Source: a virus. From it: DNA of 59,816 bases. Under the pieces are notes generated by a model. The model ran no database searches. It had not been told where the DNA came from and worked only from the letters and a program-made list of their open reading frames with translations. The stretch lies in IMG/VR virus record IMGVR_UViG_3300002140_000076, one strand, 5' to 3'. Below are positions 5,977-28,609 of this stretch, piece after piece; the first letter of the stretch is position 1, and each line of letters opens with the position of its first letter. A program made the position numbers and the translations under genes.

Positions 5977-6001
5977 AATAACAATTTAAAATCAAATCAA
6001 A

Positions 6002-7689: not shown

Positions 7690-7705
7690 CACTAAATAAC
7701 CTAAA

Positions 7706-7731: not shown

Positions 7732-7766
7732 AAACCAAACAAAACACAAAATCCCCCCTCTCTACT

Positions 7767-7896: not shown

Positions 7897-7897
7897 G

Positions 7898-10330: not shown

Positions 10331-10408
10331 CACGCTTATTTGGCGATTTAATTCAATGAAAATATAGTATAATTAGTGATTATTAATTAACAATTTAAAA
10401 CAAATAAA

Positions 10409-10696: not shown

Positions 10697-10813
10697 GGCA
10701 TCAGATAACACCTACGGCTATGAATTAAAGCCGTATAACAAATGATTGATTCAAAAAAAACAACCCCAACAACGGCTTTTATTTATAGCCATTGTTAGCA
10801 AACATTTAATAAT

Positions 10814-11095
10814 ATGATTGATTTTAAAAGTTACCACGAAAAAAACCCACAAATATGGGAGGCTTTTCAAAAATTTGCTCGCCAAGCAAAAGATAGAGGA
10901 TTTAAACATTACTCAGCCAATGGAATATTTGAAATAATTAGATGGCATACTGAAGTTTCAGCTAGAGATAATTTTAAAATTGGCAATAATTATAGACCTG
11001 ATTACGCTAGAAAAATGATGACTGATTTTCCAGATGAGTTTGATGGTTTTTTTAGAATTAGAGAGTTGAAAGCACCTAGAACTTATTGTTTATAA
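10814..11095 (+). CDS. Hypothetical protein (93 aa)
   Basis: Isolated ORF flanked by hairpin-containing spacers. Confidence 0.55.
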   Translation: MIDFKSYHEKNPQIWEAFQKFARQAKDRGFKHYSANGIFEIIRWHTEVSARDNFKIGNNYRPDYARKMMTDFPDEFDGFFRIRELKAPRTYCL

Positions 11096-11156
11096 CACCA
11101 AAACAAGAAAATGTTTTAATGTTTCTTGTTGACTGTTATGAGCCGTTTAAATGGCG

Positions 11157-11164
11157 TAACTTTG
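11157..11164 (+). promoter_or_regulatory. Bacteroidota-type -7 promoter box TAACTTTG upstream of the SNF2 helicase gene
   Basis: Matches TAnnTTTG. Located 44 nt before the ATG at 11208. Confidence 0.45.
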
Positions 11165-11190
11165 TCCAGTTTTTTGCGCAAAAAACTGGA
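11165..11190. promoter_or_regulatory. 26-bp perfect palindrome TCCAGTTTTTTGC/GCAAAAAACTGGA directly after the -7 box (operator or 5' UTR hairpin candidate)
   Basis: The sequence equals its own reverse complement over all 26 nt. Confidence 0.6.
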
Positions 11191-11207
11191 CATTTAAAAA
11201 TAAATAT

Positions 11208-12665
11208 ATGTTAGTGATTGATAGAAAGCTAGGGTATTCTGATGAAATGATGTATAGTTACTGTCAGATTCTTGCCTCAGTTGTGAATAAAACAATAGAC
11301 GTAAAGACTGGGAGAGGGAAGAACGTGACAATTACAAGAGTTCTTAAGCACTCTACTCATAAAGATGCTATTGAGAAAATAAACAATAGTGTTGATTATT
11401 ATAAAGAACTAATGGAAAAACCAAAATGTAAAGTAGAATTTAGAGACTATCAGAATGATATAATATCAAGGGGTAGTAGCTTAATGCTTAAGCATAGATT
11501 TGTGTATTTAGCAATGGAGGTTAGGACTGGTAAGACACTCACTAGTCTCGGTATAGCTAATTCAGTAGGAGCGACAAGCGTACTATTCGTAACTAAAAAG
11601 AAAGCGATAAGCAGCATACAGGATGATTATGATTTACTGCTTCCCTCGTATAGAATTGTGATTATAAATTACGAATCATTACATCTGGTAAATGATAGTT
11701 TTGATCTAATCATACTTGATGAAGCCCATGGCATGGGGGCTATACCTAAGCCAAGCAAAAGGGCGAAACAAGTCAAGGAGATGATCATGAAGAATGGTTA
11801 TCCATACGTAATACTTTTGTCAGGTACTCCGACTCCAGAGTCGTATAGTCAGATGTATCACCAGGTATATGGCATACGGAATAATCCATTCAGTGAGTTT
11901 AAAAACTTTTACAGATTCTGTGACAAGTATGTTAATGTGAAGGAGAGAAAGATAAATGGGCTAATGATTAAGGACTATAAAGATGGTCTGGAGTCGATCA
12001 TTAATGCGATGTCACCATACACAATAAACTATACGCAGAAGCAAGCTGGTTTCAAGGTTGATACTCGTGAGCATATCATGGAGGTAGAAATGAGTGATAC
12101 TGTTTATCGAATTGCTAAGAAGCTAAAGAAGGACCTTGTTGTTGAAGGTAAAGACGAAGTTATTCTTGCCGACACACCAGTGAAACTAATGATGAAGCTC
12201 CATCAGTTGTACTCAGGAACAATTAAGTTTGAGTCTGGAGCATCAATGATTATTGATCCATCAAAGGCTCAGTTTATATACGATAACTTCTGCAATGTAA
12301 AGATTGGTATCTTTTATAAATTTAAAGAGGAACTGAATGCACTCATGCAGATATACGGTAAGGAATACTTAACAACAGATCTTAGCGAGTTTGACACCAC
12401 TGATAAGTCAATAGCATTGCAGATAGTTTCTGGTCGTGAAGGCATAAGCCTAAAGAAAGCTGATGCGCTTGTGTACTTCAATATAGACTTTAGCGCAACT
12501 AGTTACTGGCAGAGCAGAGATAGGATGACTACCAAGGATAGATTGGAAAGCGATGTCTATTGGATATTCGCAAAAGGAGGAATAGAAAGGGATATATACA
12601 AAACAGTTATAGAGAAAAAAGATTATACATTAAATCATTTTAAAAAAAATAACACAAATGAATGA
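11208..12665 (+). CDS. SNF2/DEAD-like superfamily 2 helicase (485 aa)
   Basis: Motifs present: FRDYQNDII (motif Q/I region), MEVRTGKT (Walker A), LIILDEAHG (DEAH box) and LLSGTPTPES (motif III). Confidence 0.8.
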   Translation: MLVIDRKLGYSDEMMYSYCQILASVVNKTIDVKTGRGKNVTITRVLKHSTHKDAIEKINNSVDYYKELMEKPKCKVEFRDYQNDIISRGSSLMLKHRFVYLAMEVRTGKTLTSLGIANSVGATSVLFVTKKKAISSIQDDYDLLLPSYRIVIINYESLHLVNDSFDLIILDEAHGMGAIPKPSKRAKQVKEMIMKNGYPYVILLSGTPTPESYSQMYHQVYGIRNNPFSEFKNFYRFCDKYVNVKERKINGLMIKDYKDGLESIINAMSPYTINYTQKQAGFKVDTREHIMEVEMSDTVYRIAKKLKKDLVVEGKDEVILADTPVKLMMKLHQLYSGTIKFESGASMIIDPSKAQFIYDNFCNVKIGIFYKFKEELNALMQIYGKEYLTTDLSEFDTTDKSIALQIVSGREGISLKKADALVYFNIDFSATSYWQSRDRMTTKDRLESDVYWIFAKGGIERDIYKTVIEKKDYTLNHFKKNNTNE

Positions 12666-15404: not shown

Positions 15405-15415
15405 TGGAAAGGGTA

Positions 15416-15448
15416 AGGGCAGTGATAACACCACTGCCCTTTTTTTTT
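15416..15448 (+). terminator. Rho-independent terminator at the convergence point of the two arms
   Basis: agggcagtg-ataacac-cactgccct forms a 9-bp GC-rich stem followed by T8. Confidence 0.8.
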
Positions 15449-15599: not shown

Positions 15600-18500
15600 T
15601 TAATCAGTTAAAAGATTATAATCTATCATATCTGCTTCTCTTCTAATCTCTTTCTCGCTTTCAAGACTCTCCTTGTTTCTTGTTTCCATCATATCGTTAT
15701 AATTTAATGATTTTGAGCCACCTTTACTTACTTTTCCTTTTGTTTCCATCATATCGTTATAACTTATTGCCTTCCCTCTTGTTGATTTGTTTTCTTTCTT
15801 TGCGCCATTAATAGCATAATCTGAATAATTTAGGATTCTCATTATATCCTTTCTTGCATCATCATCACTACCAATAGCTGGATAGTTTTTATAGAACTTT
15901 TGAAGGGTTGGTCCTGGAACTCCTGCAAATTGAAGTGAAGAGAATATTAAATCATACCCATACTGCTCTTTTTTTGCTAAATCTTTAGTGTTTCTGTATT
16001 TAACTGCATTTTTACCTACCTCTTCTGATATTGAGATTATCCCTACGTTTCTTCCTACATTCCCAGCCCAAGGCTTATCCGTAAGTACGTCTGATATTAT
16101 ATTAATCATATCTCCAACAATAAAAAGTGCATTTAAGTTACCTACAACGGCAGCTCTTATCAAGTCATCCTCATCCTCTTCATCCCAGTCTGCTAAAAGT
16201 CCAGGCATACCACTTGCTACAAACTGGTACAGCACGGGCATCAACACATGGTACATAGCAAATACCCTTAGGTTCTCAGTGATAGTTCCCTTACCTGCTT
16301 TTCTGTCAAGTTTAAGAAGCTTTCTGCCTAAGTTTCTGACTGCCATTATTTCTTTTCTGAGGTACTGTTTTGGTGTAGTTAAGAACATACCAAATAGTCT
16401 GGTTAACGCTCCGCTTGTTTGGGTAATATCTTTGTCTTGTAAATCACCAGACTGCTGAGTTCTCTTTGTATCGCTTTCAAATTTACTAACTGCTATCTCA
16501 ATTGCTTGCGCTTCTGTCTTACCATTTTTTATTGCTTGCGCCTTATAGTATGAGTAGTTTGGAAGCCCCCCCACCATGATTGCAGTCATGTCCCCAAACT
16601 TAGTTGTATACATTAATGCGTTAACAATAAATTCTTTTGACCGAGATGGTATCAATCTTCTAGTACCATCATCAGAATATGTCTCAATATTTTTAGCTAT
16701 ACCGTTATACTTTCTATCTTGCAGATATACAGAGTTATCTCTTAACTCTTTCCATACCTTAGCCTGCTCAAATTTGTTTTTGGCTCCATATTTTAACCAA
16801 TTTACTAGACCTATATCAGCCATATATGTAAATGTTGAGGTTAGCTGTTTAACCATAACCACTGGAGATATTGCTAGTTTTGCCAGAATAAACCCTGAGT
16901 TTAGAGCATTGACAGCATGATCTAACATTCCCTTTTTAATGCCTCTATTTGCTATTGTATTTATCGAGTGGTCTATAAGCTTATATATTTTATCACCATA
17001 TATATTTTCTATTGCATGCTTAATATTCTTATTAGTGAATAGTCTATTTATATTTCTAATATTCACAGCAAATGCAGCATAATGCTCCATCTCAGCTACA
17101 TATGTAGCAAGAGCATCATTCCCGTTCATTTTTTTAATCGGCTTTGAACTAAGAACCTTACTCTTTGTTGAAGATGCGCTTACATAATTACTCATAAATG
17201 CGCTATCTTTCCCTATCATTGGATCAGAATCATTTTCTACTCCATCCCTGTAAACCTTACCTGCATAGAATTTATTATTTGGTAGGTTTGTTCTATTTAT
17301 TTTTTTATACGTCTCATTATATGTTTCATATAATTCTGGGAATAGTTCATTAACCTGCCAGTCAGCAAATTCTTTAACTTCTTTTGTAAGCTTAGACTCT
17401 ATTTGCTCCATCATGCTTTCAGCACTTTTTTTATTGGCTTCTTTTATTCGCTCAAGTTCAGCTTTTGACTCATTTCCTTCAACCAATTCTACTCCAAACA
17501 TTTCTATATTTTGGAATGCTCTTCTATTTGCAGGATCTTTATACATATTATACATATAATACATCTGATCTTGACTCCACATATCTATGTCTCCAAACTG
17601 ATTTGTTATCTCTACATTTACCTTTCTGTTTTGTCTAGCTAATTTACCCCATCTTTTTCCGTATATCTCTTGCATTTTTGTTTTTATCAATGTCTCGACA
17701 TACATTATTCTTTTTTTCTCAATTATTGTCGACTCATCCATTTTTTCAGTAACTACCTCTTGAGTTCTTCCCCCAAATAGATCACCTGGCAATGAAGATA
17801 TTCTATCCATTAAACCATCTAATGCTTCGGCTGTTCCAAATATATTCTTGGATAAAAAATTACCTAGCATATCTACATATTGGATTAGTACAAATCTTGA
17901 TTTTTTCTTAGCCGCCTCTCTATCTCTCTTATATTTTTGTTCAGATAGTTGTGATTTTGCACGTTCAGATTTTAGATCTATAGCATTACCAGTTATGTCC
18001 TCATATACATACTCAAAGTCTCTATCTCTTTTTTCGTTATCCTCTTTTATTTCATTTCTTAAATCTGTCCTACCAATATTAATAATACTTTCAAGAGAAT
18101 TACTTACAGAATCTAATAAACCAACTTTATTGATGCTATCGTTATCTAACTGAAGTGACGAATTGTATTCAATAGCAATTGATAGATCCTCGATTCTTGA
18201 TAAAGTTTTGTCATCTTGAAATTCCTGTTTAAGTAGATCCTCCATCTCGGTTTGATGAGCAACTATTAAGTCTTCAATTTCTTTATCAGTGGATTTTTCG
18301 CTTAATAATAATTCTGTTATTCCTTTAATTCTATCCTTTGCAGATAAATTAATTTTCTTTGCTTTAGGTTTGCCAGAAGATTTATCTACGTATTCATTTG
18401 TAAGTATATCAGTTATTTTTTTAGATAATGATAATACATTTCTTTTAGTTGAAAATTCTAGTACTTCGTTATATATATTATCAATATTATCTTGATTAGC

Positions 18501-21500
18501 AATTTCAATGGACCTAACCATATCCATTACGTCTTTCTTGGAATACTCATTGGTATCAATTGTCTTTCTAATAAAGTTTCTAAGTTCACGCTTAATAGCC
18601 AACAAGTCTCTCTTTCCTTTAGCCACACCAATTATTAATCTTCTAGCATCTCTTATCTTCTTAGCCATGTTTTTTGATGGTCTAATGTCGGAAGACTTCT
18701 GAAGATCACTTAGCATTTTTGCCTGCTGAGTAGATAGTCCTTTTCTGTTTAAGGTCTGTTTTGTACCTTTCTTTTTACTTCCAACTGTATAAGTGTTACT
18801 TTCATTAATATATTCTGGTTGTTTTTCAAGGAACTCAATAGTCTTATCTATTATATCTTGATTAGATAGAAGTGCAGACTTTGAATTATTTATACCAAGT
18901 TCTTTCTTTAGGTACTTATCGATGTTGTCAGCAGCCTTATCTTTTAGTTGTTTATTAGATTCATTTGCTTTATCTCTAAAATCTCTTACCTTTTCATTTA
19001 TTTCCTTAGTATTAAGTGGAGTTTTTGATTTTGAATTTTTATCTAAAAGTTCACCCTTAAACACCCTTACATCATTATTTATCTGAGTTGGATTTTTATA
19101 TGTTTCCTTTTGTTTTTTTGCAAATTCTTTTACCTTTTCGTCCAACTCAATTGCTGTCAATCTAGTATTTGAATTATTACTAGCTATCAATTTAGCTTTG
19201 AAATCAATAACTCTTTTGAATAGTTTAGCTCCAGATACAGCACCTCCATCTATATTCTTAAAGCTATTTGGCAGTTCATCAAATAGATTTATATTTATGC
19301 TCAAGGCACTATCAACATCTTTTGCGTTAAACCCTTTAAGTCTAATTAAATAGTCTCTAATCGCAACATCTCTAAAGTTGTTCTGTCTCGCTTCAGTAAT
19401 AACTTCGCTAACAGACTTTTGCTGTCTTGATGAGAAATTAATGGTTGGACCATCATCATTTATGTCATTAGGTATTATGCCATCTGCGCCCTCTACAAGT
19501 CCTCCTTGCTCCACGTTTAATATCTCAACATCTTGCTCAGTTATTGTTTCACCTGAATAAACTTTAGTTGATAATGTATTGATCAAGTCAATAACACTAT
19601 CATCCTTTTTCCCGAAGCTCTCTCCTAGATTTACGCCAAGTTTTTTGGCTAATGACTTAAAGAATTCTATGATTACATTTTTTGATGGCTTATCTAATGT
19701 TCTATATCCATACTCATTTGATGATAATAATCCAATTAACTCAGCCAATCTTTCTTCATTCTGAAGTTCACCTTGTTCGTTAATATACTTTTCTGCAAAT
19801 TTATCAATCGCCAATCCTAACTTGCTGTTTTTAGGCAGTGCTTTCCTAACTGATCCAACCATTTTTTTGGATATCGCCATTGCTAGATTCTCATCATTCT
19901 TCACTCTGTCAAGAAGTACAGCGTGAAATATTTCGTGCGCAACAGTTGACTTAGTTGCATTTGTAAGATTTATATGTATAACCTTTTCATTGCCATTATA
20001 GATATATGCTCCCCTTCCTTCTGCTCCTGCATATTTAACATACTCATCATTGCTATCATGCATGACTATCTTTAAATCTGGTAGTAACTTCTTAACAGCT
20101 TTAGCAGCTTTGGTTGCAATAGATATAATTAATTCTCTATTTCGTTGTTGTGCTGGGGAAAGGTCACCTTTATTTTTTGTATTTATGGTTATGTTTTCAC
20201 TAACATCATCACCAAAAAAGCTGGCTATATCTGATGCTTCTTGTTTAGTTTCCTTATCTAACTTTTTAGATACTTTTGCTTTTGTTCCTTTAAATTCACT
20301 AGCTTTTCTGCCGTCAGGCATTATGAAGTGCTTAGGTGCAAAATCACCCCATATAGATATAGCCGACATATTGCCGTACATTGTACCAAAACCATTTGAT
20401 ATCTGAGGTATACCATCCTGCTTAGTGCTCTCTCTCAGCCTAGCCATCTCATAATCAGTCAGTTCTCTTGAGATTTCTAATGACATTGTATCTTCATCAA
20501 CCTTGCCACCTTCTTTTTTAATCTCCGCTTTATTGAGTATTTTAACATCACTCGGTAATGCAGCAACAATATCAGCTTCCGTTAATCCTTTTTCCCCTTT
20601 TATCTCTAAACCAATGTTCAAAAACGTACCCTTCGGAATATTGTCAACCTTTACAGTACCAGTCTTACCCTTATATGTAGACCTTGTTTTAGTAGGTTCA
20701 GATATTATGGCTTTATACTCATCTTTTATTTCTTGAGATAAGTCTGATTTATCTATAAGCTCAGTAATTTCTTCTTGCGTATACTTGTCAAAGCTTGAGT
20801 TTAATTTATACAATTCATCATATCTACCCTTCATGCCTTTCAAGGCTTCTTTGTTTCTGATGTCATTTATTTTATCATATAAAGCCTTTAGATTAGTGAA
20901 TTTTGACTTTGGAATTACAGCCTCGTATCCCTTATCTCTATTGCCTATATACTTCTCAGAGAAGTCTTTCGTCATTACGTCACCATCAAACTCACGACTA
21001 TCATTAGGTGCTAACTCAGATGTCGTTTGAGCCCTAGTTTTACCACCCCATTGACCGACAACCATTTCAAAACCATTATTCCCAGCAACCTTAGTTATGT
21101 ATGCTAACTCAGTATTACTATCAAATGACTGCCCTGGGAATTCTTCCTCATGCATAGCCTTGGCTTCTTCTCTGAATCCTAAAGGATCAGAATTAGCATC
21201 GTATACTTTATCCTTAGCTACTTTTACTGAATACTGAGCGTTACCAGTAACCATTTGTTCTGAGTCATTCTGGTCCGTATAGTACATAGCAGCCCCACCA
21301 ATCTTACCTAGAGCAATCGATTCACCCTTAGATCCTTTAGTTGTTCCCGATGACTTCTTTACTTTATCGTATCCTTTTTTCCCTCTATGGAAGAATACAA
21401 AATTACCATCTGCATCCTCTGTAAGGTTAGCAAAATTTGATGAGTTTTCTTCATTTATACCAGCTCGTGATGTTGGTGCTAAAGCAGCTAGTTCTGCTTG

Positions 21501-24443
21501 TTTTAATTTTTCTAATTCTTCAAGTCTTTTATCTCGTTGTATTTGTTCTTCTTGTTTTTTCTTAACATCTTGTATTTCTTGACTTGACAAACCCTCTTCA
21601 TCAATAGAGATAGGTGCTAAAATATTTAAACCCTCATCTTCTATTATTTTATCATATTTCGCTTCTATATCAACCTCACTAGTTTGTGGTGCTGTTTTAG
21701 GTTCATCTATAATACTTTCTAATTGATTATTTAATTGATCAACACGAGCCTGCTTTTTTGTAACAAGCTTTGGATCAGATACTTTTATATCATCCATTAA
21801 ATTGTCTCTCTCGTATATTATTGCTAAAGCCCTCTTTCTTTGATCAGTAGTATAGTCAGTTGGTATGGATCTTGATTGACCTATAAGTTTTTTTGTTATT
21901 TCTAATTCCGAATCTGCCTCTTCTCTTGTAATTTCACCTTCATCAACTTGAATGTTTAATTTAGCCTCGTGCATCTCAATAAAGTTAGGATCATTTCTGA
22001 TTGCCTCAAATGTTTCAAATACACCATCTGGAAGAGTATTAGTCTTTTGTTTTGTTATAGCGTTTTTTACAGCACCTGGAACTCCCATTATAAATCCACC
22101 AATCATCTCGTCAACACCTGCCATCAACGCATCACTGAACCATTCAGTAAGTGTGTTAGGCGTTTCAAACATATCCTTGCCCTTCACATCATTATAAAGT
22201 TCTTTTAAGAAACTTTCAGTAAGCTCTTGCTCGACTCCAGTCTCAAACTCAGCTAGTCCTGCGGCTGTAATTGTAAGTGCTCCTCTAGCAAATGAACTCT
22301 TCACATCCTGCGCTATAAATTCAGAAAAAGTTTTTGCCGTTGTTGTGGCTGTAGACTTACCTATTGCTTTTGCTAGGTACTTGTTTAAAAGACCCTTTTG
22401 TGATATAACATTTCTGAATCCAATATCTTCAAGTCTACTAACAGCTAACGCCACTGGGACCTTAATCAGATACTTTTCACTTTCAGGCACATCGTCAAAT
22501 TCTGGATTATCAGCCATCTCTTTGTCCATTGCGCTAGCTGTGCTTGTAAATAGTTTAGCTTTTCTAACGAGACCACCTACTGCTCCAGGACCTCCAATCA
22601 TAGATGGTAATGACCCAGAAATACCTAATAAGGCTCTGCTCCATGTGCTTTCTTGTTGTAGGCTTAAATATGCCTCAGAAATATCGCTATCAGAAAAAGT
22701 ATCCATAAATCTATCAGCTAATGCTGTTCTCGTAACATCGACAATACCCAAAGAAACATCTGTTTTGTCTGCGGTATAAGAGTACCTGTTTCTTTGTCTT
22801 CCTTCTACTGCGTCTTTATAATTTTTGTTATATTTTATTGATTTTCTGACTAAGTCTAATACCTTTGAATTAGCTATGTCAAATGCAGTTTTTTCTGAAT
22901 CTAAGTTTATGAAATCCTGCACAGATGGTGATCCAAACATATCCTTTGCCATCATTAACGCCCTATCCTTGAGTGATTTTGTTATGGAATAGGCATCATT
23001 GGTATCTCCGCCAAGTATGGAAGTAATTTTTTCTAACGAATAGCCGTTTAGCCCCTTGCCTTTATATTTTTCTGGTATTAAGTTTTCCTCTTTAGCTACA
23101 CGAATAAGTTCTCTCTTGTACTCTTCCTTACTCATCCCAGCTGGTGCTCCCATTAGACCACTCCCATAAGTCACCAAATCTATAGTCTCACTTGCCATCT
23201 CTGCCGAAGAGCCAGCAAAGTTCTTCATGAATTCCTTCGTCATTCCTTGAAAAAGTGTGCCTTGTTTTGATTGCATCCTTGCGTATTCACCTGTAAGCCT
23301 ATCAAGTTTCGCTCCCTTGTATCTTAAAGTTTTATCTATATTATTAAGATTATTTCCCTTATCAATGATTTTTTGATACTCAGCACTCCATACGTTGAGC
23401 TTATCTAATAATTCAGGGTTGTTTTGTATTTCGCTAGGAGGCACACCTTTAAACTCATCCTCATATTGTTTTTCGTATTTGGATTTTAATATTGAAAATT
23501 TCTCCACCCGATCTTCAAAATATTTTACTTGATCATTCAATACCCTGACAGCCCTTAAGACTTCATCTTGACTCTGAACTCTTTGTTTAGCCTTATTTGC
23601 ACCATCAGTTGTTTTATTTTCTCTTAGGAATTTTTTTAATTCATTAGCTGATTCTTTTGAACTCGACCCCGACCAAGGATCAAGGTCAACATATAGAACT
23701 TTTTTATTTTGAGCTGTTACAGTCATAGCATCACCCATGCCAGTTTGCTCAAACTTAAAACCGTACTGACCATATTCATACTGCAACTTAGGCACTACAA
23801 ACTCTTCATTCTTCTCAATTAAATCACTATTAATTTCTTTTTGAGATTTTTCAAATTGGTCTGAAATATTTCCTGCTAGTATAGTCCCAGCATAGGGATC
23901 TCCATTAGGCATTTCCGCTGCCTGCTTTGCTTTTAGTTGATCCAAAGTCATTGGCGGTGGGTTCTCAGCAAAATATTTTGCATCAGCATCAGCTCTCTCC
24001 TTTTCAGGATCATACTTTAAAGGAGCTGTAAAGGTTGTTTTTTGTTTCCAATCGCTTTCATTGCTGCTATATGGATCCTTTGGGGTTACATTTTGAGATT
24101 CACGCTTTAAAGGAGCTGTAAAGGTTGTTTTCTGCTTCGGATCATTACCCCCTGTAAGGTCTTGATCTGTCCAAGGATTCTTTGAAGGCTTTGTAGCCTG
24201 CGATGAAGGCTTCGTAGAACCTTTTTTTTTTACAGGATTAGAATCAGCTTGTTGTTTTTTATTACCAACTAATACTTTAAAATCATCTATTGTTTTAGTG
24301 TACCCATTATTTTTAGATACGTTATACATAGTATTAATAGCCTCATTATTCGATGACATTAACAATTTGAATTCATCAAATGATTTTGAGTAACCTTCTT
24401 CTTTTGCCAAAGAATATAGTGTATTTAATGCTTCTTCGTTCAT
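15600..24443 (-). CDS. Giant internal-virion / ejection protein candidate (2947 aa), polyvalent type, with a zincin HExxH motif
   Basis: Uninterrupted 8.8-kb ORF in the last position of a T7-like structural order, where T7 gp16 sits. It has TVAHEIFHAVL (HExxH, 19923-19937), long coiled-coil K/E-rich stretches, a hydrophobic C-terminal region and short repeats at both termini. Confidence 0.8.
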   Translation of the reverse strand: MNEEALNTLYSLAKEEGYSKSFDEFKLLMSSNNEAINTMYNVSKNNGYTKTIDDFKVLVGNKKQQADSNPVKKKGSTKPSSQATKPSKNPWTDQDLTGGNDPKQKTTFTAPLKRESQNVTPKDPYSSNESDWKQKTTFTAPLKYDPEKERADADAKYFAENPPPMTLDQLKAKQAAEMPNGDPYAGTILAGNISDQFEKSQKEINSDLIEKNEEFVVPKLQYEYGQYGFKFEQTGMGDAMTVTAQNKKVLYVDLDPWSGSSSKESANELKKFLRENKTTDGANKAKQRVQSQDEVLRAVRVLNDQVKYFEDRVEKFSILKSKYEKQYEDEFKGVPPSEIQNNPELLDKLNVWSAEYQKIIDKGNNLNNIDKTLRYKGAKLDRLTGEYARMQSKQGTLFQGMTKEFMKNFAGSSAEMASETIDLVTYGSGLMGAPAGMSKEEYKRELIRVAKEENLIPEKYKGKGLNGYSLEKITSILGGDTNDAYSITKSLKDRALMMAKDMFGSPSVQDFINLDSEKTAFDIANSKVLDLVRKSIKYNKNYKDAVEGRQRNRYSYTADKTDVSLGIVDVTRTALADRFMDTFSDSDISEAYLSLQQESTWSRALLGISGSLPSMIGGPGAVGGLVRKAKLFTSTASAMDKEMADNPEFDDVPESEKYLIKVPVALAVSRLEDIGFRNVISQKGLLNKYLAKAIGKSTATTTAKTFSEFIAQDVKSSFARGALTITAAGLAEFETGVEQELTESFLKELYNDVKGKDMFETPNTLTEWFSDALMAGVDEMIGGFIMGVPGAVKNAITKQKTNTLPDGVFETFEAIRNDPNFIEMHEAKLNIQVDEGEITREEADSELEITKKLIGQSRSIPTDYTTDQRKRALAIIYERDNLMDDIKVSDPKLVTKKQARVDQLNNQLESIIDEPKTAPQTSEVDIEAKYDKIIEDEGLNILAPISIDEEGLSSQEIQDVKKKQEEQIQRDKRLEELEKLKQAELAALAPTSRAGINEENSSNFANLTEDADGNFVFFHRGKKGYDKVKKSSGTTKGSKGESIALGKIGGAAMYYTDQNDSEQMVTGNAQYSVKVAKDKVYDANSDPLGFREEAKAMHEEEFPGQSFDSNTELAYITKVAGNNGFEMVVGQWGGKTRAQTTSELAPNDSREFDGDVMTKDFSEKYIGNRDKGYEAVIPKSKFTNLKALYDKINDIRNKEALKGMKGRYDELYKLNSSFDKYTQEEITELIDKSDLSQEIKDEYKAIISEPTKTRSTYKGKTGTVKVDNIPKGTFLNIGLEIKGEKGLTEADIVAALPSDVKILNKAEIKKEGGKVDEDTMSLEISRELTDYEMARLRESTKQDGIPQISNGFGTMYGNMSAISIWGDFAPKHFIMPDGRKASEFKGTKAKVSKKLDKETKQEASDIASFFGDDVSENITINTKNKGDLSPAQQRNRELIISIATKAAKAVKKLLPDLKIVMHDSNDEYVKYAGAEGRGAYIYNGNEKVIHINLTNATKSTVAHEIFHAVLLDRVKNDENLAMAISKKMVGSVRKALPKNSKLGLAIDKFAEKYINEQGELQNEERLAELIGLLSSNEYGYRTLDKPSKNVIIEFFKSLAKKLGVNLGESFGKKDDSVIDLINTLSTKVYSGETITEQDVEILNVEQGGLVEGADGIIPNDINDDGPTINFSSRQQKSVSEVITEARQNNFRDVAIRDYLIRLKGFNAKDVDSALSININLFDELPNSFKNIDGGAVSGAKLFKRVIDFKAKLIASNNSNTRLTAIELDEKVKEFAKKQKETYKNPTQINNDVRVFKGELLDKNSKSKTPLNTKEINEKVRDFRDKANESNKQLKDKAADNIDKYLKKELGINNSKSALLSNQDIIDKTIEFLEKQPEYINESNTYTVGSKKKGTKQTLNRKGLSTQQAKMLSDLQKSSDIRPSKNMAKKIRDARRLIIGVAKGKRDLLAIKRELRNFIRKTIDTNEYSKKDVMDMVRSIEIANQDNIDNIYNEVLEFSTKRNVLSLSKKITDILTNEYVDKSSGKPKAKKINLSAKDRIKGITELLLSEKSTDKEIEDLIVAHQTEMEDLLKQEFQDDKTLSRIEDLSIAIEYNSSLQLDNDSINKVGLLDSVSNSLESIINIGRTDLRNEIKEDNEKRDRDFEYVYEDITGNAIDLKSERAKSQLSEQKYKRDREAAKKKSRFVLIQYVDMLGNFLSKNIFGTAEALDGLMDRISSLPGDLFGGRTQEVVTEKMDESTIIEKKRIMYVETLIKTKMQEIYGKRWGKLARQNRKVNVEITNQFGDIDMWSQDQMYYMYNMYKDPANRRAFQNIEMFGVELVEGNESKAELERIKEANKKSAESMMEQIESKLTKEVKEFADWQVNELFPELYETYNETYKKINRTNLPNNKFYAGKVYRDGVENDSDPMIGKDSAFMSNYVSASSTKSKVLSSKPIKKMNGNDALATYVAEMEHYAAFAVNIRNINRLFTNKNIKHAIENIYGDKIYKLIDHSINTIANRGIKKGMLDHAVNALNSGFILAKLAISPVVMVKQLTSTFTYMADIGLVNWLKYGAKNKFEQAKVWKELRDNSVYLQDRKYNGIAKNIETYSDDGTRRLIPSRSKEFIVNALMYTTKFGDMTAIMVGGLPNYSYYKAQAIKNGKTEAQAIEIAVSKFESDTKRTQQSGDLQDKDITQTSGALTRLFGMFLTTPKQYLRKEIMAVRNLGRKLLKLDRKAGKGTITENLRVFAMYHVLMPVLYQFVASGMPGLLADWDEEDEDDLIRAAVVGNLNALFIVGDMINIISDVLTDKPWAGNVGRNVGIISISEEVGKNAVKYRNTKDLAKKEQYGYDLIFSSLQFAGVPGPTLQKFYKNYPAIGSDDDARKDIMRILNYSDYAINGAKKENKSTRGKAISYNDMMETKGKVSKGGSKSLNYNDMMETRNKESLESEKEIRREADMIDYNLLTD

Positions 24444-24477
24444 TACTTTTTATTATTTAATTTTTTTTGTGTGCCAT

Positions 24478-26415
24478 TTAATGAGGTGCCATGCTATTGC
24501 CACCGCTACTCAGATTGAATTGACGAAACTTTTGCTCCGCTATTGTTAAAGACATATCTGTAGCTAATTCATTTAAGAAACTATCTCTTGTTTCTTGAGC
24601 TGATTTGTTATCTCTATTATTTACACTATATATAATTTTTCTTCCTGATGCCGTTGTAACTTCAAAATCAGTTTTGGACCCCTCTACAGCGGCAACTGAG
24701 CCTCCAAATTTCACTGCTTGATTATTAATACTCTGTAGAACGTATTTTACCTCCTTGTCCTTGAATGCTCCATACTGAAAACTGCCTTTATACCTAGGAG
24801 TATTTACTTCTTTAATGATTTTATCTCTGTATGTCTCACCACCTTGACCCTGTTCTCTAATTGCTCGTCCTGTTTTTTTCTCATAATAAGTTTGGTTTGC
24901 ACTACCTCCAGAAGCCGCTAATGCCTGCTCAGTATTATCTACTCCGTGTATTTGGTTTCCTGATATAACAAAGTCTCTATAAGGAATAGGTTCTCCATTA
25001 GCTTTTATCATCGGCACGGACCTGCTACCCTTCGGTACACTTCCATTCCCATCAAATTTCAGAATAACATAACCAGGTTTACTTTTTATGTCTACATCAT
25101 ATATACCTTGGTTTTGTGCGGCTTGCGTTCCTAATATTTGTTGTGTTGCGGAAATTTGTTCTGATTCGTTCCCATAATAAAGTTTACCCCAAGCACCTAC
25201 TGCTGAGTATTTATCTCTCCTCTCATCACTTCGTAACGCTTGCCACTGTTGCTGTTGTGGACGCTGAGGAGGAGTTGCTCCGCTAATTGCTTGCCCTTCA
25301 ATAGCGACATTAAGCGCACCTCTAAGAACAGTGATTAAACCTTCTTTTGCCTTGTCCCTATGAGCCTTACCTATTGCACTATCGAAATTAGGAACAACAT
25401 TACCGTCAACTTGATCAACTAAAATATGATTTTCGTCTTCTTCGCTAGCATCGAAAGTAAATGTATATTCTTTACCATTAGAAGCAAAACCACCTAAATT
25501 ATTAGTCAATAAAGAACTAATATTGTATACGTTTGATAATTGGCTTTCTGCCCAAAGGTTCTCAGTATCTTCTTGCATACCAATCAACTTCGCATCTTCC
25601 TTAGTAATGTATCCTTTTTTAACCATATCTGCAATATTAGACTCGCTTCTAAATGCAGCACCACTCATAGTAGTGATTAATCCCTTCTGATATAGTGTGC
25701 CTAACTTAGCGTCAATCGCTTGGAACTGACCAAATACTTCTGCTTTGGCTTTGGTTACAGCTGATGCCATATCATAAGCATCAAATTTCCCTTTGATTCT
25801 ATTTCTAAGATTATTTATACCAACTAACTTATTTGGATCAGTCTCAATTTTACCTGTCGCAGGATCTTTAAATCCAACTAGTACATTGCCTGTCTCATTA
25901 TTTATTACAATTTCTGAATTGTTGAAATTACCAAACCCCTCTGCTGACTCCATCAAGAAAGACTCAAGTTTTTGAGCTCCTGTAATCGGCTTACCATCAG
26001 GACCAACAGCTGTGCCTGGATTAGCCTTGTATCGTTCCATCTTATCAGCATATTCATTTTGATATTCTTGGGCTAGTGTCATCGCCTGGTCAAATCCATC
26101 TGTTAAATTTTGGCGCATTGTTATGTAGTCTTTTGGCTTCAGCTGACCACTCTTTAGTAAAGAATTCGCCATTAAAAGCTGTTGTTGAGCACCATCGCCC
26201 CCCTTTAATGCCCAGGTGTTCATATTTCCAGAGTCACCTGTTACTGTGTTCTTATAAGAGTTCATCGCTTCACGAGTAGCCCTATCTATCTCAGCCTTCT
26301 TCTCCTCACGTACACGAGCCTCTTCTTTAAGAATTCCTGAGAAGTTTGACCCAACCTCTGCCCAGTTTATCTGTTCAGAAGCATCTCTGCCTACATATCC
26401 TATCTTTGTTGCCAT
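24478..26415 (-). CDS. Internal-virion protein candidate (645 aa; gp15-like position)
   Basis: Placed between the membrane-anchored repeat protein and the giant protein. No catalytic motif seen. Confidence 0.6.
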   Translation of the reverse strand: MATKIGYVGRDASEQINWAEVGSNFSGILKEEARVREEKKAEIDRATREAMNSYKNTVTGDSGNMNTWALKGGDGAQQQLLMANSLLKSGQLKPKDYITMRQNLTDGFDQAMTLAQEYQNEYADKMERYKANPGTAVGPDGKPITGAQKLESFLMESAEGFGNFNNSEIVINNETGNVLVGFKDPATGKIETDPNKLVGINNLRNRIKGKFDAYDMASAVTKAKAEVFGQFQAIDAKLGTLYQKGLITTMSGAAFRSESNIADMVKKGYITKEDAKLIGMQEDTENLWAESQLSNVYNISSLLTNNLGGFASNGKEYTFTFDASEEDENHILVDQVDGNVVPNFDSAIGKAHRDKAKEGLITVLRGALNVAIEGQAISGATPPQRPQQQQWQALRSDERRDKYSAVGAWGKLYYGNESEQISATQQILGTQAAQNQGIYDVDIKSKPGYVILKFDGNGSVPKGSRSVPMIKANGEPIPYRDFVISGNQIHGVDNTEQALAASGGSANQTYYEKKTGRAIREQGQGGETYRDKIIKEVNTPRYKGSFQYGAFKDKEVKYVLQSINNQAVKFGGSVAAVEGSKTDFEVTTASGRKIIYSVNNRDNKSAQETRDSFLNELATDMSLTIAEQKFRQFNLSSGGNSMAPH

Positions 26416-26422
26416 GTGTTAA

Positions 26423-27247
26423 CTATATTGAAAATGGGTTAGAATACAAATCAAATATTGAATTGTTTACTGCGTATGGATTCGGCATACCTGGAGTTGC
26501 TGGATTGTTTACTGCGTATGGATTCGGAGCACTTGGAGGAGCAAATACTGAATTGTTTACTGAAAATGGGTTAGAATACAAATCAAATACTGAATTGCTT
26601 GATATATATGGATTTGGCATACCTTGACCTGCTGCTTTACCTTGTTGAGGTGCTGCTTCACCTGCACCAACAACACCTGTTACTACCTTAGATTTTGATT
26701 TAGGATATAGGCTTGGCATTGCTATTGCTTGCTGAGTTGTATTTGCCACACCTTGGATACCTGCCTGCAGTGCTTGCTGAGAAGCAAATCTCGCATCAGC
26801 AGCAGCCTGTTGATTTCCTTGAATCTCCATTGTGTCAAGCCCGACATTTATATCTCTTAGTCTTGAGTCTTCTTCAAGAATTGCATTCTCAATATTAGTT
26901 AAATCATTTGATTGTCTCTCAGCTATGTTAGCCTGACCCATCTGTTGACCTGCATATATTTGACCAGCAGCAGAGGCAGCTCCTCTATCGCTCTCAGCAG
27001 CAGCCTGAGTAATCATAGCTCCTTGAGCAAGTAGAGCCATTCTCTCTGCATTGTACGGCTCTTTCTTGATTGACATCTGCTCCGCATAGTTTACCTGCAA
27101 AGCTTTTCTAGCCTCGGCTAGTGCCTTATCCGCTTCATTCTGGAATTCGAGCTGTTTATTTTTCTCTTTATTTGCCTGAGCAAACGATACAGCAGTTGTC
27201 CCTGCCTGTATAACTAAACCTGCAATGCCTGCTATTAATCCTGCCAT
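26423..27247 (-). CDS. Internal-virion protein candidate (274 aa) with an N-terminal hydrophobic helix, a Q/A-rich middle and a C-terminal N/P-rich repeat array
   Basis: N-terminus MAGLIAGIAGLVIQAGTTAVSFA. The C-terminus has repeated NPYAVNN and S(V/I)FDLYSNPFS(V/I) units, mirrored by DNA repeats at 26430-26597. Confidence 0.65.
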   Translation of the reverse strand: MAGLIAGIAGLVIQAGTTAVSFAQANKEKNKQLEFQNEADKALAEARKALQVNYAEQMSIKKEPYNAERMALLAQGAMITQAAAESDRGAASAAGQIYAGQQMGQANIAERQSNDLTNIENAILEEDSRLRDINVGLDTMEIQGNQQAAADARFASQQALQAGIQGVANTTQQAIAMPSLYPKSKSKVVTGVVGAGEAAPQQGKAAGQGMPNPYISSNSVFDLYSNPFSVNNSVFAPPSAPNPYAVNNPATPGMPNPYAVNNSIFDLYSNPFSI

Positions 27248-27781: not shown

Positions 27782-28609
27782 TTAAGGAAACGATTTCATA
27801 ACTTCTGACTCAACTGTGAACAATTCTGTCTTATTTGTGTTTGAGTTTGTGATATCAAACACACAATAGTGTCCTAACACACCATGCGACTCAGCTACTG
27901 AGTTCTTAATGTATAAGAAGTACGCATCATTAATAGGGATTGGTATAGTTGTTGGAGCTGGTGTTACCACTGGAATAAATGTATTCCCATCAGTGTTTAT
28001 AACTATCTCGTTTATACCTGCCCTAAGATTTATGTTGACTGCTGTAATTTGACCAGCTAGTGACGGTGTGCCGTAGTTTGGTGGCAATGAAAAGTACATC
28101 ATATCGCCAATACTTATAATGTTTCCTATGCTGATATTTGTAGAAAATGATATAGTTGCTGTGTTTACACCAAATGTAACTGTCGCACTCTTACCAATAC
28201 CATTCAATGATCGCAATGCGTACTCAGATGTTTGAGATGGGACTGTTCCAGTATTACGAACAAAACCATACCATGACTGCTCCTTTTTCTCAAACCACGA
28301 TGCATCTATAAATCCTGAGTCTTGAATATCAGTAATTAAATTAGCTTGCCAAGAATTATCACCCTCAAGGTTTATTGTTTTAAATAACTTGTTCTCTAAT
28401 GGCAAGTCATTAAATACGCTTTTCAGTGTTGAGTTGTACTGAATCCCATAGAAGTTATTTCTTATGTTGTTTACGTTGTGTCTATATAAATTACCACCCT
28501 TAAAAGTATAGAAGTAGTTATTCATACCTATCATCCAATCAGGAGTATACGAGTAGAAAGATGGGAATCCCTGCGCCCATTCCGAATATGTCAATGTGTA
28601 ATCTGCCAT
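27782..28609 (-). CDS. Hypothetical structural protein (275 aa)
   Basis: Tiled in the structural operon. Confidence 0.6.
   Translation of the reverse strand: MADYTLTYSEWAQGFPSFYSYTPDWMIGMNNYFYTFKGGNLYRHNVNNIRNNFYGIQYNSTLKSVFNDLPLENKLFKTINLEGDNSWQANLITDIQDSGFIDASWFEKKEQSWYGFVRNTGTVPSQTSEYALRSLNGIGKSATVTFGVNTATISFSTNISIGNIISIGDMMYFSLPPNYGTPSLAGQITAVNINLRAGINEIVINTDGNTFIPVVTPAPTTIPIPINDAYFLYIKNSVAESHGVLGHYCVFDITNSNTNKTELFTVESEVMKSFP

What the first reader, a model, noticed from the sequence alone, without database searches (positions are those of the whole stretch)
15600..24443. 2947-aa giant protein: ejection protein of polyvalent type with an embedded zincin motif
This single ORF takes up about 15% of the genome. 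It occupies the gp16-like last position of the internal-virion gene series, after a membrane-anchored 274-aa protein and a 645-aa protein. It contains a clear HExxH (AHEIFHAV, 19923-19937), long charged coiled-coil regions, and a hydrophobic C-terminal third (for example VFAMYHVLMPVLYQFVASGMPGLLADW followed by the acidic run DEEDEDD). It has no recognisable lytic transglycosylase. Giant virion-packaged proteins that combine a metallopeptidase with other effector domains have been described as polyvalent proteins injected with the DNA. The domain content of this one is largely unassigned.
Basis: partly seen in the sequence, partly recalled or inferred. Interest (0 to 1): 0.7.

Follow-up and report, generated by a model that had tools for sequence, protein, structure and literature searches.

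The report
Giant modular phage cargo protein
The last gene of this phage's particle-building operon encodes a 2,947-residue modular protein with a conserved zinc-protease domain and a newly recognised ADP-ribosyltransferase-like domain; it is probably packed in the virion and injected into the host, and its rear half is swapped as a cassette between near-identical phages.

Summary
The ORF (15600-24443, minus strand, 2947 aa) and the HExxH at 19923-19937 are real.

- **Family.** The protein belongs to an uncurated family of 1.7-4.6 k-aa proteins from Bacteroidota podophage-like contigs. Some members carry ART-PolyVal, LPD23/38, MuF_C, RadC, SNF2 or GNAT domains, so the polyvalent reading holds.
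- **Zincin.** The motif sits in a conserved zincin domain. H1503, E1504, H1507 and E1564 are invariant. The model has the canonical fold topology. The best structural matches are weak; anthrax lethal factor ranks first.
- **New domain.** Residues 995-1170 form a conserved domain with an invariant His and Tyr and a conserved acidic residue. Its model best matches the ADP-ribosyltransferase AcrIF11 and phage PolyVal ARTs.
- **Cassette swap.** A contig about 99% identical in DNA carries an unrelated rear half without the zincin, so the zincin-E-F half is a swappable cassette.
- **Translocation hints.** The giant and both upstream partner proteins have no cysteine (about 24 expected in the giant). 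The 274-aa, 645-aa, giant gene trio is conserved.
- **Limits.** Packaging and ejection are inferred, not shown. There is no homology to T7 gp16. The 'hydrophobic C-terminal third' is really one conserved helical hairpin.

Verdict: a new variant of a known kind.

The parts
15600..24443 (-). Whole ORF, 2947 aa: giant modular (polyvalent-type) protein
   Evidence: ORF list and translation. There are 62 giant homologues.
24258..24443 (-). Module A, aa 1-62: N-terminal leader made of two ~30-aa repeats (consensus MNEEAL..Y.L....GY.K....F..L). Always at the extreme N terminus.
   Evidence: Present in 35 of 62 homologues, up to 68% identical even where the rest has diverged. Within the window it occurs only in this ORF. 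A role as an incorporation signal is inferred.
23862..24257 (-). Low-complexity linker, aa 63-194, with PVKKK (aa 70-74) and two KQKTTFTAPLK repeats (aa 103-113 and 133-143)
   Evidence: Sequence. A PVK-KK motif recurs after the leader in many homologues.
21654..23861 (-). Module B, aa 195-930: conserved scaffold domain with Gly/Ala-rich amphipathic segments (FW.GA..GLAES.PAMIG; AGAQEAVGGFIMG). Function unknown.
   Evidence: Conserved in 33 homologues. No Pfam or PDB match.
21462..21653 (-). Charged linker, aa 931-994. It contains an indel relative to contig L055.
20934..21461 (-). Module C1, aa 995-1170: ART-fold (ADP-ribosyltransferase-like) payload domain. H1019 (21387-21389) and Y1055 (21279-21281) are invariant. 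Position 1126 (21066-21068) is always E or D.
   Evidence: Alignments A5 and A6. AF2 pLDDT 81. Foldseek PDB top hit is 6kyf, AcrIF11 (prob 0.98, E 5.9e-3), followed by MbcT and tankyrases. BFVD matches polyvalent proteins and a PolyVal ART. 359 clusters found in 1.84 billion representatives.
20274..20933 (-). Module C2, aa 1171-1390: accompanies C1 in a subset of homologues. Function unknown.
15605..20287 (-). Swappable 3' cassette, aa ~1386-2947 (modules D-E-F). It is replaced by an unrelated 4.35-kb sequence in a contig that is otherwise 97-100% identical.
   Evidence: blastn of L055 against the window. Protein comparison with P0001.
19494..20273 (-). Module D, aa 1391-1650: zincin-like metallopeptidase (gluzincin pattern). 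HExxH is at 19923-19937 (H1503, E1504, H1507). The third ligand is E1564 (19752-19754), inside the NEE motif.
   Evidence: Invariant columns in A2. AF2 pLDDT is 76 overall and 79-96 per ten-residue block over the zincin core (residues 31-220 of the model): helix, three strands, HExxH helix, Glu helix. Foldseek top hits are anthrax LF, M61, MATCAP, SPRTN and IrrE, all weak. 20 of 20 IMG/VR copies keep the motifs.
19074..19466 (-). Module E, aa 1660-1790: small conserved domain, preceded by SRQQK (aa 1672-1676, nt 19416-19430). Function unknown.
17634..18866 (-). Module F1, aa 1860-2270: charged C-terminal core domain, first part
   Evidence: It is a remote homologue of the alternative F' cassette (hhalign probability 91.5%).
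15774..17633 (-). Module F2, aa 2271-2890: the most widespread conserved core. Also present in Tenacibaculum phage Gundel_1 gp74, the MW202828 giant, prophage proteins and a MuF_C/SNF2 polyvalent protein.
   Evidence: No Pfam or PDB match.
16086..16265 (-). Conserved hydrophobic helix / acidic loop (DWDEEDEDD, aa 2752-2760) / hydrophobic helix hairpin, aa 2727-2786
   Evidence: Kyte-Doolittle peaks. Family consensus. The same hallmark occurs in F'. Two of 12 members give weak T4SS_pilin hits, best E 6e-4.
15603..15773 (-). C-terminal tail, aa 2891-2947, with two YNDMMET repeats
24478..26415 (-). 645-aa partner protein, no cysteine, immediately upstream
   Evidence: A homologue lies directly upstream of the giant in 6 of 6 IMG/VR loci where upstream DNA is held, and in MW202828 and L055. 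Cys count.
26423..27247 (-). 274-aa partner protein with an N-terminal hydrophobic anchor, no cysteine, and C-terminal NPY/SNPF repeats
   Evidence: PHROG 13764, 'virion structural protein'. Sequence. A homologue is detected in 4 of those 6 loci.
15415..15441 (.). GC-rich hairpin with a T-run, in the convergent intergenic region downstream of the giant gene
   Evidence: one found, 0.2 expected in shuffles.

Best explanation
The ORF encodes a polyvalent-type giant cargo protein of a Bacteroidota podophage related to Elemovirus and Pervagoviridae.

Shown:
- The protein is a mosaic of independently conserved modules. In order: a two-repeat N-terminal leader (A), a 700-aa scaffold domain (B), an ART-fold payload (C1 plus C2), a gluzincin-type metallopeptidase (D), a small domain (E), and a ~1000-aa C-terminal core (F1 and F2) with a conserved hydrophobic hairpin around an acidic loop.
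- The D-E-F half is exchanged as one cassette between near-identical phages.

Inferred mechanism:
- The protein is made late, together with the 274-aa membrane-anchored and 645-aa proteins. All three are packed inside the capsid.
- At infection they are extruded, at least partly unfolded, through the portal and tail ahead of or with the DNA.
- The A, B and F scaffold parts provide incorporation and envelope passage.
- The zincin cuts the polyprotein, or possibly a host target. Candidate junction sites are motifs such as SRQQK.
- The ART-like domain ADP-ribosylates a host protein, for take-over or counter-defence.
For: Family and mosaicism:
- 62 homologues of 1.7-4.6 k aa share different subsets of the modules. 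Among 14 of them scanned, Pfam finds ART-PolyVal, LPD38, LPD23, MuF_C, SNF2/Helicase_C, RadC and GNAT.
- In 45 IMG/VR contigs, many of 55-65 kb, the order is A-B-D-[variable insert, up to ~1240 aa]-E-F1-F2.

Zincin:
- H1503, E1504, H1507 and E1564 are invariant. 20 of 20 further copies keep HExxH and an acidic EE motif about 55 residues later, NEE in 17.
- The AF2 topology fits the MPTase core described by Iyer et al. 2017.
- Most of the top Foldseek hits are zincins. Single members give weak Tox-MPTase, M13 and DUF5700 Pfam hits.

ART:
- The model has pLDDT 81. The best PDB match is AcrIF11, with prob 0.98. BFVD matches polyvalent proteins and PolyVal ARTs.
- H1019, Y1055 and an acidic residue at 1126 are conserved. 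AcrIF11 uses H20/Y46 and D146/E147.

Delivery (indirect):
- It is the last gene of the structural operon. The 274-aa, 645-aa, giant trio is conserved.
- Order in the window: a protein whose near-identical homologue in L055 carries a crAss_MUZ_C hit, then a 174-aa protein, a TM protein, a second protein, and the giant. This parallels the gene order MUZ (muzzle gene, gp44, from my own knowledge), C1, C2, giant cargo in crAss001.
- The giant has 0 Cys where about 24 are expected. 122 of 168 homologues and both partner proteins also have none. Avoidance of cysteine is typical of proteins moved unfolded through narrow channels or the periplasm (my inference).
- Domains fused in homologues (helicase, RNase, GNAT, ART) act on cytoplasmic targets.

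Cassette swap.
Against: - There are no direct virion data for this protein or for any sequence-detectable homologue. The 'structural protein' labels on elemo gp18 and Gundel gp74 are annotations of unknown basis.
- phi40:1 gp101, which is verified by MS/MS and sits at the same position, shows no similarity to any module tested (B, D, F1, F2), even by profile.
- Neither enzymatic domain reaches a curated family threshold. Pfam is empty for the window protein. No PDB Foldseek hit has E<=1e-3 for D or C1. hhalign finds no link between C1 and ART-PolyVal.
- I could not inspect whether H, Y and E superpose on the ART catalytic residues.
- A 95-99% identical relative lacks the zincin altogether. Self-processing by D therefore cannot be obligatory for the family.
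- The hydrophobic helices are borderline as transmembrane segments.
Confidence: 0.6

Rival explanations
1. A purely mechanical ejectosome or internal-core protein, functionally like T7 gp16. It would form the trans-envelope channel. Its zincin would replace the missing lytic transglycosylase by cutting cell-wall peptides or envelope proteins. No cytoplasmic effector role.
For: - Last position after a membrane-anchored protein and a second protein.
- Conserved hydrophobic hairpin in F2, with weak T4SS_pilin-like hits.
- No lytic transglycosylase found.
- Cysteine-free.
Against: - A near-identical phage has no zincin in this gene, so the zincin is not needed for penetration.
- The closest folds are lethal factor, MATCAP and SPRTN-type proteases, not cell-wall peptidases.
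- An ART-like domain here, and helicase, RNase and GNAT domains in homologues, make sense only in the cytoplasm.
- No similarity to gp16 or to any solved ejectosome protein.
Confidence: 0.15
2. A late-expressed protein that is not packaged. It would act in the producing cell, for example in host manipulation, superinfection exclusion or assembly scaffolding.
For: Nothing here shows packaging directly. There is no homology to any MS-verified virion protein.
Against: - Conserved placement at the end of the virion operon, directly after proteins with 'virion structural' PHROG matches.
- Family-wide absence of cysteine.
- Architecture and fused domains typical of injected polyvalent proteins.
Confidence: 0.1
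3. An external virion component, such as a fibre, decoration or adhesin, whose enzymatic domains act on the cell surface.
For: Large size. It lies downstream of tail-fibre-like genes.
Against: - No Pfam match to any Ig-like, collagen-like or lectin family.
- The two AF2 models cover only D and C1; D is mostly helical and C1 is a mixed α/β enzyme fold.
- ART, helicase, RNase and GNAT modules need cytoplasmic substrates.
Confidence: 0.05
4. A virion-packaged RNA polymerase of the N4 gp50 or crAss gp66 type.
For: - Giant size.
- Position after cargo-like genes, as in crassviruses.
- N4-type vRNAPs are also fused to lethal-factor-like MPTases.
Against: - No DxDxD motif anywhere.
- No sequence or profile hit to any PDB polymerase for the whole protein or for modules B, C1, D and F2.
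- No Pfam RNA-polymerase hit.
Confidence: 0.03

Closest known systems
Polyvalent proteins of phages and conjugative elements (Iyer, Burroughs, Anand, de Souza, Aravind 2017, PMC5512222)
   Same: A very large single polypeptide that strings together unrelated enzymatic and unknown domains, with a zincin-like MPTase as a hub domain. It is encoded beside virion genes. Homologues carry the family's signature Pfam domains: ART-PolyVal, LPD23, LPD38, MuF_C and RadC.
   Different: The window protein itself matches none of the curated polyvalent Pfam domains. Its scaffold (leader A, B, E, F) is none of the described anchors (MuF, portal, N4 RNAP, ArdC-N or DarB). Its ART-like domain is not detectably related to ART-PolyVal by profile comparison.
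Phage N4 virion RNA polymerase gp50, and P1 DarB/DdrB
   Same: Giant capsid-packaged, injected proteins. The N4 protein carries an MPTase related to anthrax lethal factor. Lethal factor is also the best structural match of module D.
   Different: No polymerase, methylase or helicase module here. No sequence similarity.
T7 internal core proteins gp14, gp15 and gp16
   Same: Three consecutive genes, the first membrane-anchored and the last the largest, lying beside the tail genes. A role in channel formation is plausible.
   Different: No homology. No lytic transglycosylase. Here the three genes follow the fibre-like gene and end the operon. The giant is more than twice the size of gp16 (my knowledge) and carries effector-type enzymes.
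crAss001 cargo proteins (Bayfield et al. 2023, PMC10172136)
   Same: A Bacteroidota podophage. In crAss001 the genes for a TM-containing cargo protein C1 (gp45), cargo protein C2 (gp46) and giant, largely helical cargo proteins (gp47, gp49, gp50) are consecutive and follow the muzzle gene (gp44, from my own knowledge; not in the passages read). These cargo proteins must partly unfold to be ejected. In the window, the near-identical homologue of the 275-aa protein has a crAss_MUZ_C Pfam hit.
   Different: The crAss giants are RNA-polymerase subunits. No sequence similarity to them was detected, and there is no DFDxD motif.
AcrIF11 and T4 Alt (phage ADP-ribosyltransferases)
   Same: C1 has its best solved-structure match in AcrIF11. 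It has conserved His, Tyr and acidic residues, like those required for AcrIF11 activity. Alt is a packaged, injected ART (text).
   Different: About 8% sequence identity to AcrIF11. C1 is embedded in a 2947-aa protein rather than standing alone. Its target and activity are unknown.

Membership tests
Polyvalent proteins (Iyer et al. 2017) | One polypeptide with two or more unrelated effector or enzymatic domains | tested here: met
   Zincin domain plus ART-fold domain, together with at least five further conserved modules.
Polyvalent proteins (Iyer et al. 2017) | Encoded by a phage or conjugative element next to packaging or virion genes | tested here: met
   Complete phage genome. Last gene of the TerL, portal, capsid and tail block.
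Polyvalent proteins (Iyer et al. 2017) | Contains domains of the curated polyvalent network (MPTase-PolyVal, ART-PolyVal, LPDs and others) | tested here: inconclusive
   The window protein has no Pfam hit at E<=0.1. Its homologues do carry ART-PolyVal, LPD23, LPD38, MuF_C and RadC.
Polyvalent proteins (Iyer et al. 2017) | Delivered into the recipient cell together with the DNA | not testable with these tools
   Indirect hints only: synteny and cysteine avoidance.
Zincin-like metallopeptidase (gluzincin type) | HExxH on a helix and a third-ligand Glu on a later helix, both conserved | tested here: met
   H1503, E1504, H1507 and E1564 are invariant in 21 sequences and kept in 20 of 20 IMG/VR copies. 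In the model, helices at residues 111-124 and 169-184 carry them.
Zincin-like metallopeptidase (gluzincin type) | Core of an N-terminal helix and a three-stranded sheet before the active-site helix | tested here: met
   AF2 model: H41-60, E68-73, E89-93, E98-103, then H111-124.
Zincin-like metallopeptidase (gluzincin type) | Significant similarity to a known zincin structure or curated family | tested here: inconclusive
   Most of the top Foldseek hits are zincins, but with E 0.055-1.2 and none <=1e-3. Pfam gives only sub-threshold Tox-MPTase4 (1e-4), M13 and DUF5700 hits in single members. MPTase-PolyVal was not hit.
ADP-ribosyltransferase fold, H-Y-E (diphtheria-toxin-like) class | ART fold | tested here: inconclusive
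   Best PDB match is AcrIF11, 6kyf (prob 0.98, E 5.9e-3, TM 0.43/0.52), followed by MbcT and tankyrases with poor E-values. In BFVD a PolyVal ART scores E 1.1e-3 and polyvalent proteins score 1e-5 to 1e-4.
ADP-ribosyltransferase fold, H-Y-E (diphtheria-toxin-like) class | Conserved His, Tyr and catalytic Glu/Asp in the right strands | tested here: inconclusive
   H1019 and Y1055 are invariant and position 1126 is always E or D. They lie at a strand end, within a strand and at a strand start in the model. Superposition on the catalytic residues could not be inspected.
ADP-ribosyltransferase fold, H-Y-E (diphtheria-toxin-like) class | Membership of Pfam ART-PolyVal (PF18760) | tested here: not met
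   No Pfam hit. hhalign of C1 against ART-PolyVal domains taken from homologues gives probability 0.4%. Ten proteins carry both domains at separate places.
T7 gp16-like internal virion protein | Sequence homology to gp16, or an N-terminal lytic transglycosylase | tested here: not met
   No Pfam, PHROG or PDB match.
T7 gp16-like internal virion protein | Present inside the virion and ejected | not testable with these tools
   No data.
Virion RNA polymerase (N4 gp50 or crAss gp66 type) | Catalytic DxDxD/DFDxD motif, or similarity to the T7-like polymerase core | tested here: not met
   No DxDxD. No PDB or Pfam polymerase hit.

The most novel reading that the evidence does not exclude
The family is a previously undescribed plug-and-play injection platform of Bacteroidota podophages.
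- A cysteine-free scaffold (leader A, B, F or F') would thread through the tail and envelope together with the 274-aa and 645-aa partners.
- It would carry interchangeable effector cassettes.
- The zincin would cut at junction motifs such as [GS]R[EQ]QK to release them.
- The ART-like module would found a new ADP-ribosyltransferase family (about 360 clusters at 50% identity) that disables a host defence or takes over host machinery, as AcrIF11 does for CRISPR.
- Whole half-gene cassette swaps between 99%-identical phages would be the signature of an arms race.
Probability: 0.2. Interest if true: 0.75.

Novelty: new variant of a known kind. Interest (0 to 1): 0.55.

Why it matters
Injected phage proteins decide the first minutes of infection. 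Only a few have been studied (T4 Alt, P1 Dar proteins, N4 and crAss polymerases).

This family is common in 55-65 kb marine and freshwater Bacteroidota phage contigs, and no module of the window protein is covered by Pfam (PHROGs gave only an E = 0.067 hit). It offers three things to work on:
- A natural experiment: two alleles of the rear half, with and without the zinc protease, in otherwise 99%-identical genomes. This bears on what the protease is for.
- A new ART-like domain family, structurally nearest to an anti-CRISPR enzyme, as a candidate counter-defence or take-over effector.
- A long, cysteine-free protein as a model for how 300-kDa cargo is threaded through a short tail.

Cultured Elemovirus phages carry a homologue (gp18), so these questions can be tested experimentally.

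Tried and rejected
- **Curated libraries, whole protein.** Pfam, PHROGs and PDB sequence searches gave nothing useful. The only hits were Gp_dh_C (E 0.13) and a tape-measure PHROG (E 0.067), treated as chance.
- **Profile searches of modules against PDB.** Modules D, C1, F2 and B gave only noise: designed helical proteins, the HA2 coiled coil, ribosomal L3.
- **F2 = LPD38?** hhalign probability 0.6%; rejected.
- **C1 = DUF3293?** In elemo gp18, DUF3293 lies at aa 1323-1392 and C1 at aa 2087-2235. They are separate domains.
- **C1 = divergent ART-PolyVal?** Rejected at profile level, although the structures resemble each other.
- **Homology to MS-verified phi40:1 gp101, and of the 645-aa protein to gp100.** None by BLASTP; for gp101 also none with module HMMs or hhalign (modules B, D, F1, F2).
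- **Hop from Gundel gp74 to Cellulophaga phages.** It found only itself. phi46:3 has no giant in the region inspected, nt 22000-52000.
- **Stand-alone ~1100-aa F proteins.** These would have suggested a split gene. They are truncated gene calls: the ORF in L003 is 4149 aa.
- **The search for related loci.** It failed with the F2 alignment and with the single sequence. A hand-made degenerate DNA pattern for KRTQQSxDLQD worked instead.
- **Literature.** No paper on the elemo phages was found in the library.
Full report
**1. The observation**

The window is a complete phage genome. Its first and last 252 bases are identical. TerL, portal, capsid and tail genes lie on the minus strand, and a replication module lies on the plus strand.

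The ORF at 15600-24443 (minus strand) is 2947 codons with no internal stop. It makes up 14.8% of the window. It starts 34 nt after the stop of a 645-aa ORF. A GC-rich hairpin with a T-run lies downstream of it in the convergent intergenic region.

The single HExxH, AHEIFHAV, is at aa 1503-1507, nt 19923-19937. The protein has only 14 histidines, so 0.005 such motifs are expected by chance.

Only three 19-residue windows exceed a Kyte-Doolittle mean of 1.4. Charged stretches exist, but coiled coils were not tested.

**2. Relatives and modular anatomy**

Curated libraries say almost nothing about the protein itself. A search of the 5.8-billion-protein collection found 62 relatives of 1661-4577 aa. 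Local BLASTP against them divides the query into modules that occur in different combinations:

| Module | Residues | Note |
|---|---|---|
| A | 1-62 | N-terminal leader |
| B | 195-930 | scaffold domain |
| C | 995-1400 | payload (C1 and C2) |
| D | ~1400-1645 | carries the HExxH |
| E | 1660-1790 | small domain |
| F1, F2 | 1860-2890 | C-terminal core |

Fourteen relatives were scanned with Pfam. They contain ART-PolyVal, LPD38, LPD23, MuF_C, SNF2/Helicase_C, RadC and GNAT domains. This is the repertoire of the polyvalent proteins of Iyer et al. 2017.

Among cultured phages only two giants share parts:
- Flavobacterium Elemovirus gp18 (3694 aa; D then C1, in the reverse order).
- Tenacibaculum phage Gundel_1 gp74 (2482 aa; F1 and F2 plus a sub-threshold, GNAT-like hit).

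The closest genome by capsid protein, MW202828 (72% identity), has a 3859-aa giant with A, E and F but no detectable B or D.

**3. The zincin**

In an alignment of 21 D modules the invariant columns include H1503, E1504, H1507 and E1564, and E1563 is nearly invariant. The pattern is HExxH followed by NEE 57 residues later, the gluzincin arrangement.

AF2 was run with this alignment (pLDDT 76 overall; ten-residue blocks across the core are 79-96). It predicts an N-terminal helix, three strands, the HExxH helix, two inserted helices, and the helix bearing the Glu. That is the MPTase core as described in PMC5512222.

Foldseek against the PDB ranks anthrax lethal factor first (E 0.055, prob 0.82). 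An M61 peptidase, MATCAP, SPRTN and IrrE follow. No hit reaches 1e-3. Individual members give sub-threshold Pfam hits to Tox-MPTase4, M13 and DUF5700.

In IMG/VR contigs, 20 of 20 complete D modules keep both motifs. I conclude that D is a real, selectively maintained zincin of a lineage not covered by curated families. Catalysis and metal binding remain untested.

**4. A second enzyme-like domain**

Residues 995-1170 (C1) are conserved in a subset of giants. H1019, Y1055, E1062, Y1081, D1082, D1086, N1110, W1132 and R1137 are invariant, and position 1126 is always E or D. Pfam and PDB sequence searches are empty.

An exhaustive HMM search of 1.84 billion representatives found 359 clusters. 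Nearly all of the 150 listed lie inside proteins of more than 1,000 aa (up to 4,518 aa), at variable positions.

The AF2 model (pLDDT 81, pTM 0.79) gave these structural matches:
- Best in the PDB is 6kyf (prob 0.98, E 5.9e-3). MbcT and tankyrases follow with poor scores.
- 6KYF is AcrIF11, an ADP-ribosyltransferase. In its homologue AcrIF11Pae2, activity needs H20/Y46 and D146/E147.
- In BFVD the model matches 'large polyvalent protein associated domain' proteins (1e-5 to 1e-4), a 'PolyVal ADP-ribosyltransferase' (1.1e-3) and a MuF fusion.

Profile comparison with the ART-PolyVal domains of the homologues is negative, and ten proteins carry both domains. C1 is therefore best described as a new ART-fold family with an H-Y-E/D pattern. 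I could not check the residue superposition.

**5. The scaffold**

- **Module A.** Two ~30-aa repeats, always at the extreme N terminus. It is the most widely retained piece, up to 68% identical.
- **Modules B and F.** No Pfam or PDB relatives.
- **F2 hairpin.** F2 contains a family-wide hairpin of two hydrophobic helices around DWDEEDEDD (aa 2727-2786). Two of 12 members give weak T4SS_pilin hits there.

**6. Cassette swap**

P0001 is 95% identical to aa 1-1390 and then unrelated. It has no HExxH. At DNA level its contig compares with the window as follows:

| Window region | Identity to the P0001 contig (L055) |
|---|---|
| 29869-20288 | 97.5-99% |
| 20287-15605 (4.68 kb) | no similarity; replaced by 4.35 kb |
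| 15604-15486 | 100% |

The replacement, F', is shared by many other giants. It is a remote homologue of F1 (hhalign probability 91.5%) and has the same W-D-acidic hairpin. The window protein is therefore [A-B-C] joined to [D-E-F].

In 45 IMG/VR contigs found with a KRTQQSxDLQD pattern, the order is A-B-D-[variable insert]-E-F1-F2. None has C. So D travels with E-F, the payload slot usually lies between D and E, and the zincin is dispensable for the family's core function.

**7. Evidence on delivery**

All of this is indirect.
- The 645-aa homologue lies directly upstream of the giant in 6 of 6 IMG/VR loci with upstream DNA, in MW202828 and in L055. The 274-aa homologue was detected in 4 of those 6 loci and is present in L055.
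- The 274-aa protein has an N-terminal hydrophobic anchor and matches a 'virion structural protein' PHROG.
- The near-identical homologue of the 275-aa protein two genes further upstream has a crAss_MUZ_C hit. The order muzzle-like, TM protein, second protein, giant recalls crAss001, where the cargo genes C1 (gp45), C2 (gp46) and the giant cargo genes follow the muzzle gene. Those cargo proteins must partly unfold to be ejected.
- The giant has no cysteine, where about 24 are expected from the other ORFs of this genome. 122 of 168 giant relatives and both partner proteins also have none. I read this as adaptation to transit in an unfolded state, an inference from general knowledge of secreted proteins.
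- Against: the MS/MS-verified protein at the same position in Cellulophaga phage phi40:1, gp101, shows no similarity to the modules tested, even by profile.

**8. Mechanism, rivals and verdict**

The most likely account, at about 0.6:
- The protein is a packaged, ejected polyvalent cargo protein.
- Its scaffold serves incorporation and passage.
- Its zincin processes the chain or a host target.
- Its ART-like domain modifies a host protein.

The motif [GS]R[EQ]QK is three-fold enriched in the giants and often lies at the start of a conserved module, such as E in the window. It is a candidate cleavage site, unproven.

Rivals:

| Rival | Confidence |
|---|---|
| Purely mechanical gp16-like channel protein | 0.15 |
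| Unpackaged late protein | 0.10 |
| External fibre or decoration | 0.05 |
| Virion RNA polymerase (no DxDxD, no polymerase hits) | 0.03 |

**9. Comparison and novelty**

It works like, and is related to, polyvalent proteins. The window protein matches none of the curated domains, uses a different scaffold, and carries an ART-like domain of a new family. I rate it a new variant of a known kind.

Noticed in passing
window 1-252 and 59565-59816: The first and last 252 bases are identical. The window is therefore a complete phage genome, either circularly assembled or with a direct terminal repeat.
   Followed up: partly
window 15605-20287, compared with locus L055 9521-13870: A metagenomic contig is 97.5-100% identical on both sides but has an unrelated 4.35-kb sequence in place of the 3' 4.68 kb of the giant gene. 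This is a clean cassette exchange inside one gene between near-identical phages.
   Followed up: yes
window 15600-27247 (giant, 645-aa and 274-aa ORFs): All three proteins have no cysteine, where about 24 are expected in the giant alone. 122 of 168 giant homologues also have none. Histidine is also very rare in the giant (14 of 2947 residues).
   Followed up: partly
window 27782-28609 (275-aa ORF, minus strand): Its ~99%-identical homologue in L055 has a precomputed Pfam hit to crAss_MUZ_C, the C-terminal domain of the crassvirus muzzle protein. The tail of this non-crass podophage may therefore share a part with crassviruses.
   Followed up: no
window 19416-19430 (SRQQK, aa 1672-1676) and homologues: The motif [GS]R[EQ]QK is about three-fold enriched in the giant proteins (31 observed, 9.4 expected from shuffles). 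It often lies at the N-terminal edge of a conserved module such as E. It may be a processing site.
   Followed up: partly
window 26423-27247 (274-aa ORF): The C-terminal part carries repeated short motifs (MPNPY..N/S..FDLYSNPF). The homologous virion protein gp099 of phi40:1 ends in a similar NPF motif.
   Followed up: no
window 24015-24047, 24105-24137, 24222-24236 and 15681-15761: Short exact repeats lie in the linker and tail of the giant: KQKTTFTAPLK twice and YNDMMET twice. A PVKKK motif after the leader recurs in many homologues.
   Followed up: no
locus L003 1013-13462; public proteins P0073, P0075, P0090: Proteins of about 1100-1150 aa in the public collection that looked like stand-alone F modules are truncated gene calls. 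The ORF in L003 is 4149 aa.
   Followed up: yes
locus L006 (MW202828.1) 741-12320: The 3859-aa giant of the closest GenBank genome is annotated 'reticulocyte binding/rhoptry protein'. This is almost certainly a spurious low-complexity match.
   Followed up: no
window 29581-34230 (1549-aa ORF): This is the second-largest gene. It has a strong PHROG match to a 'virion structural protein' (E 2e-225) but no Pfam domain. It has 17 cysteines, in contrast to the giant.
   Followed up: no
window 15415-15441: A 10-bp GC-rich hairpin followed by a T-run lies between the convergent giant gene and the replication module. It is a candidate terminator.
   Followed up: no
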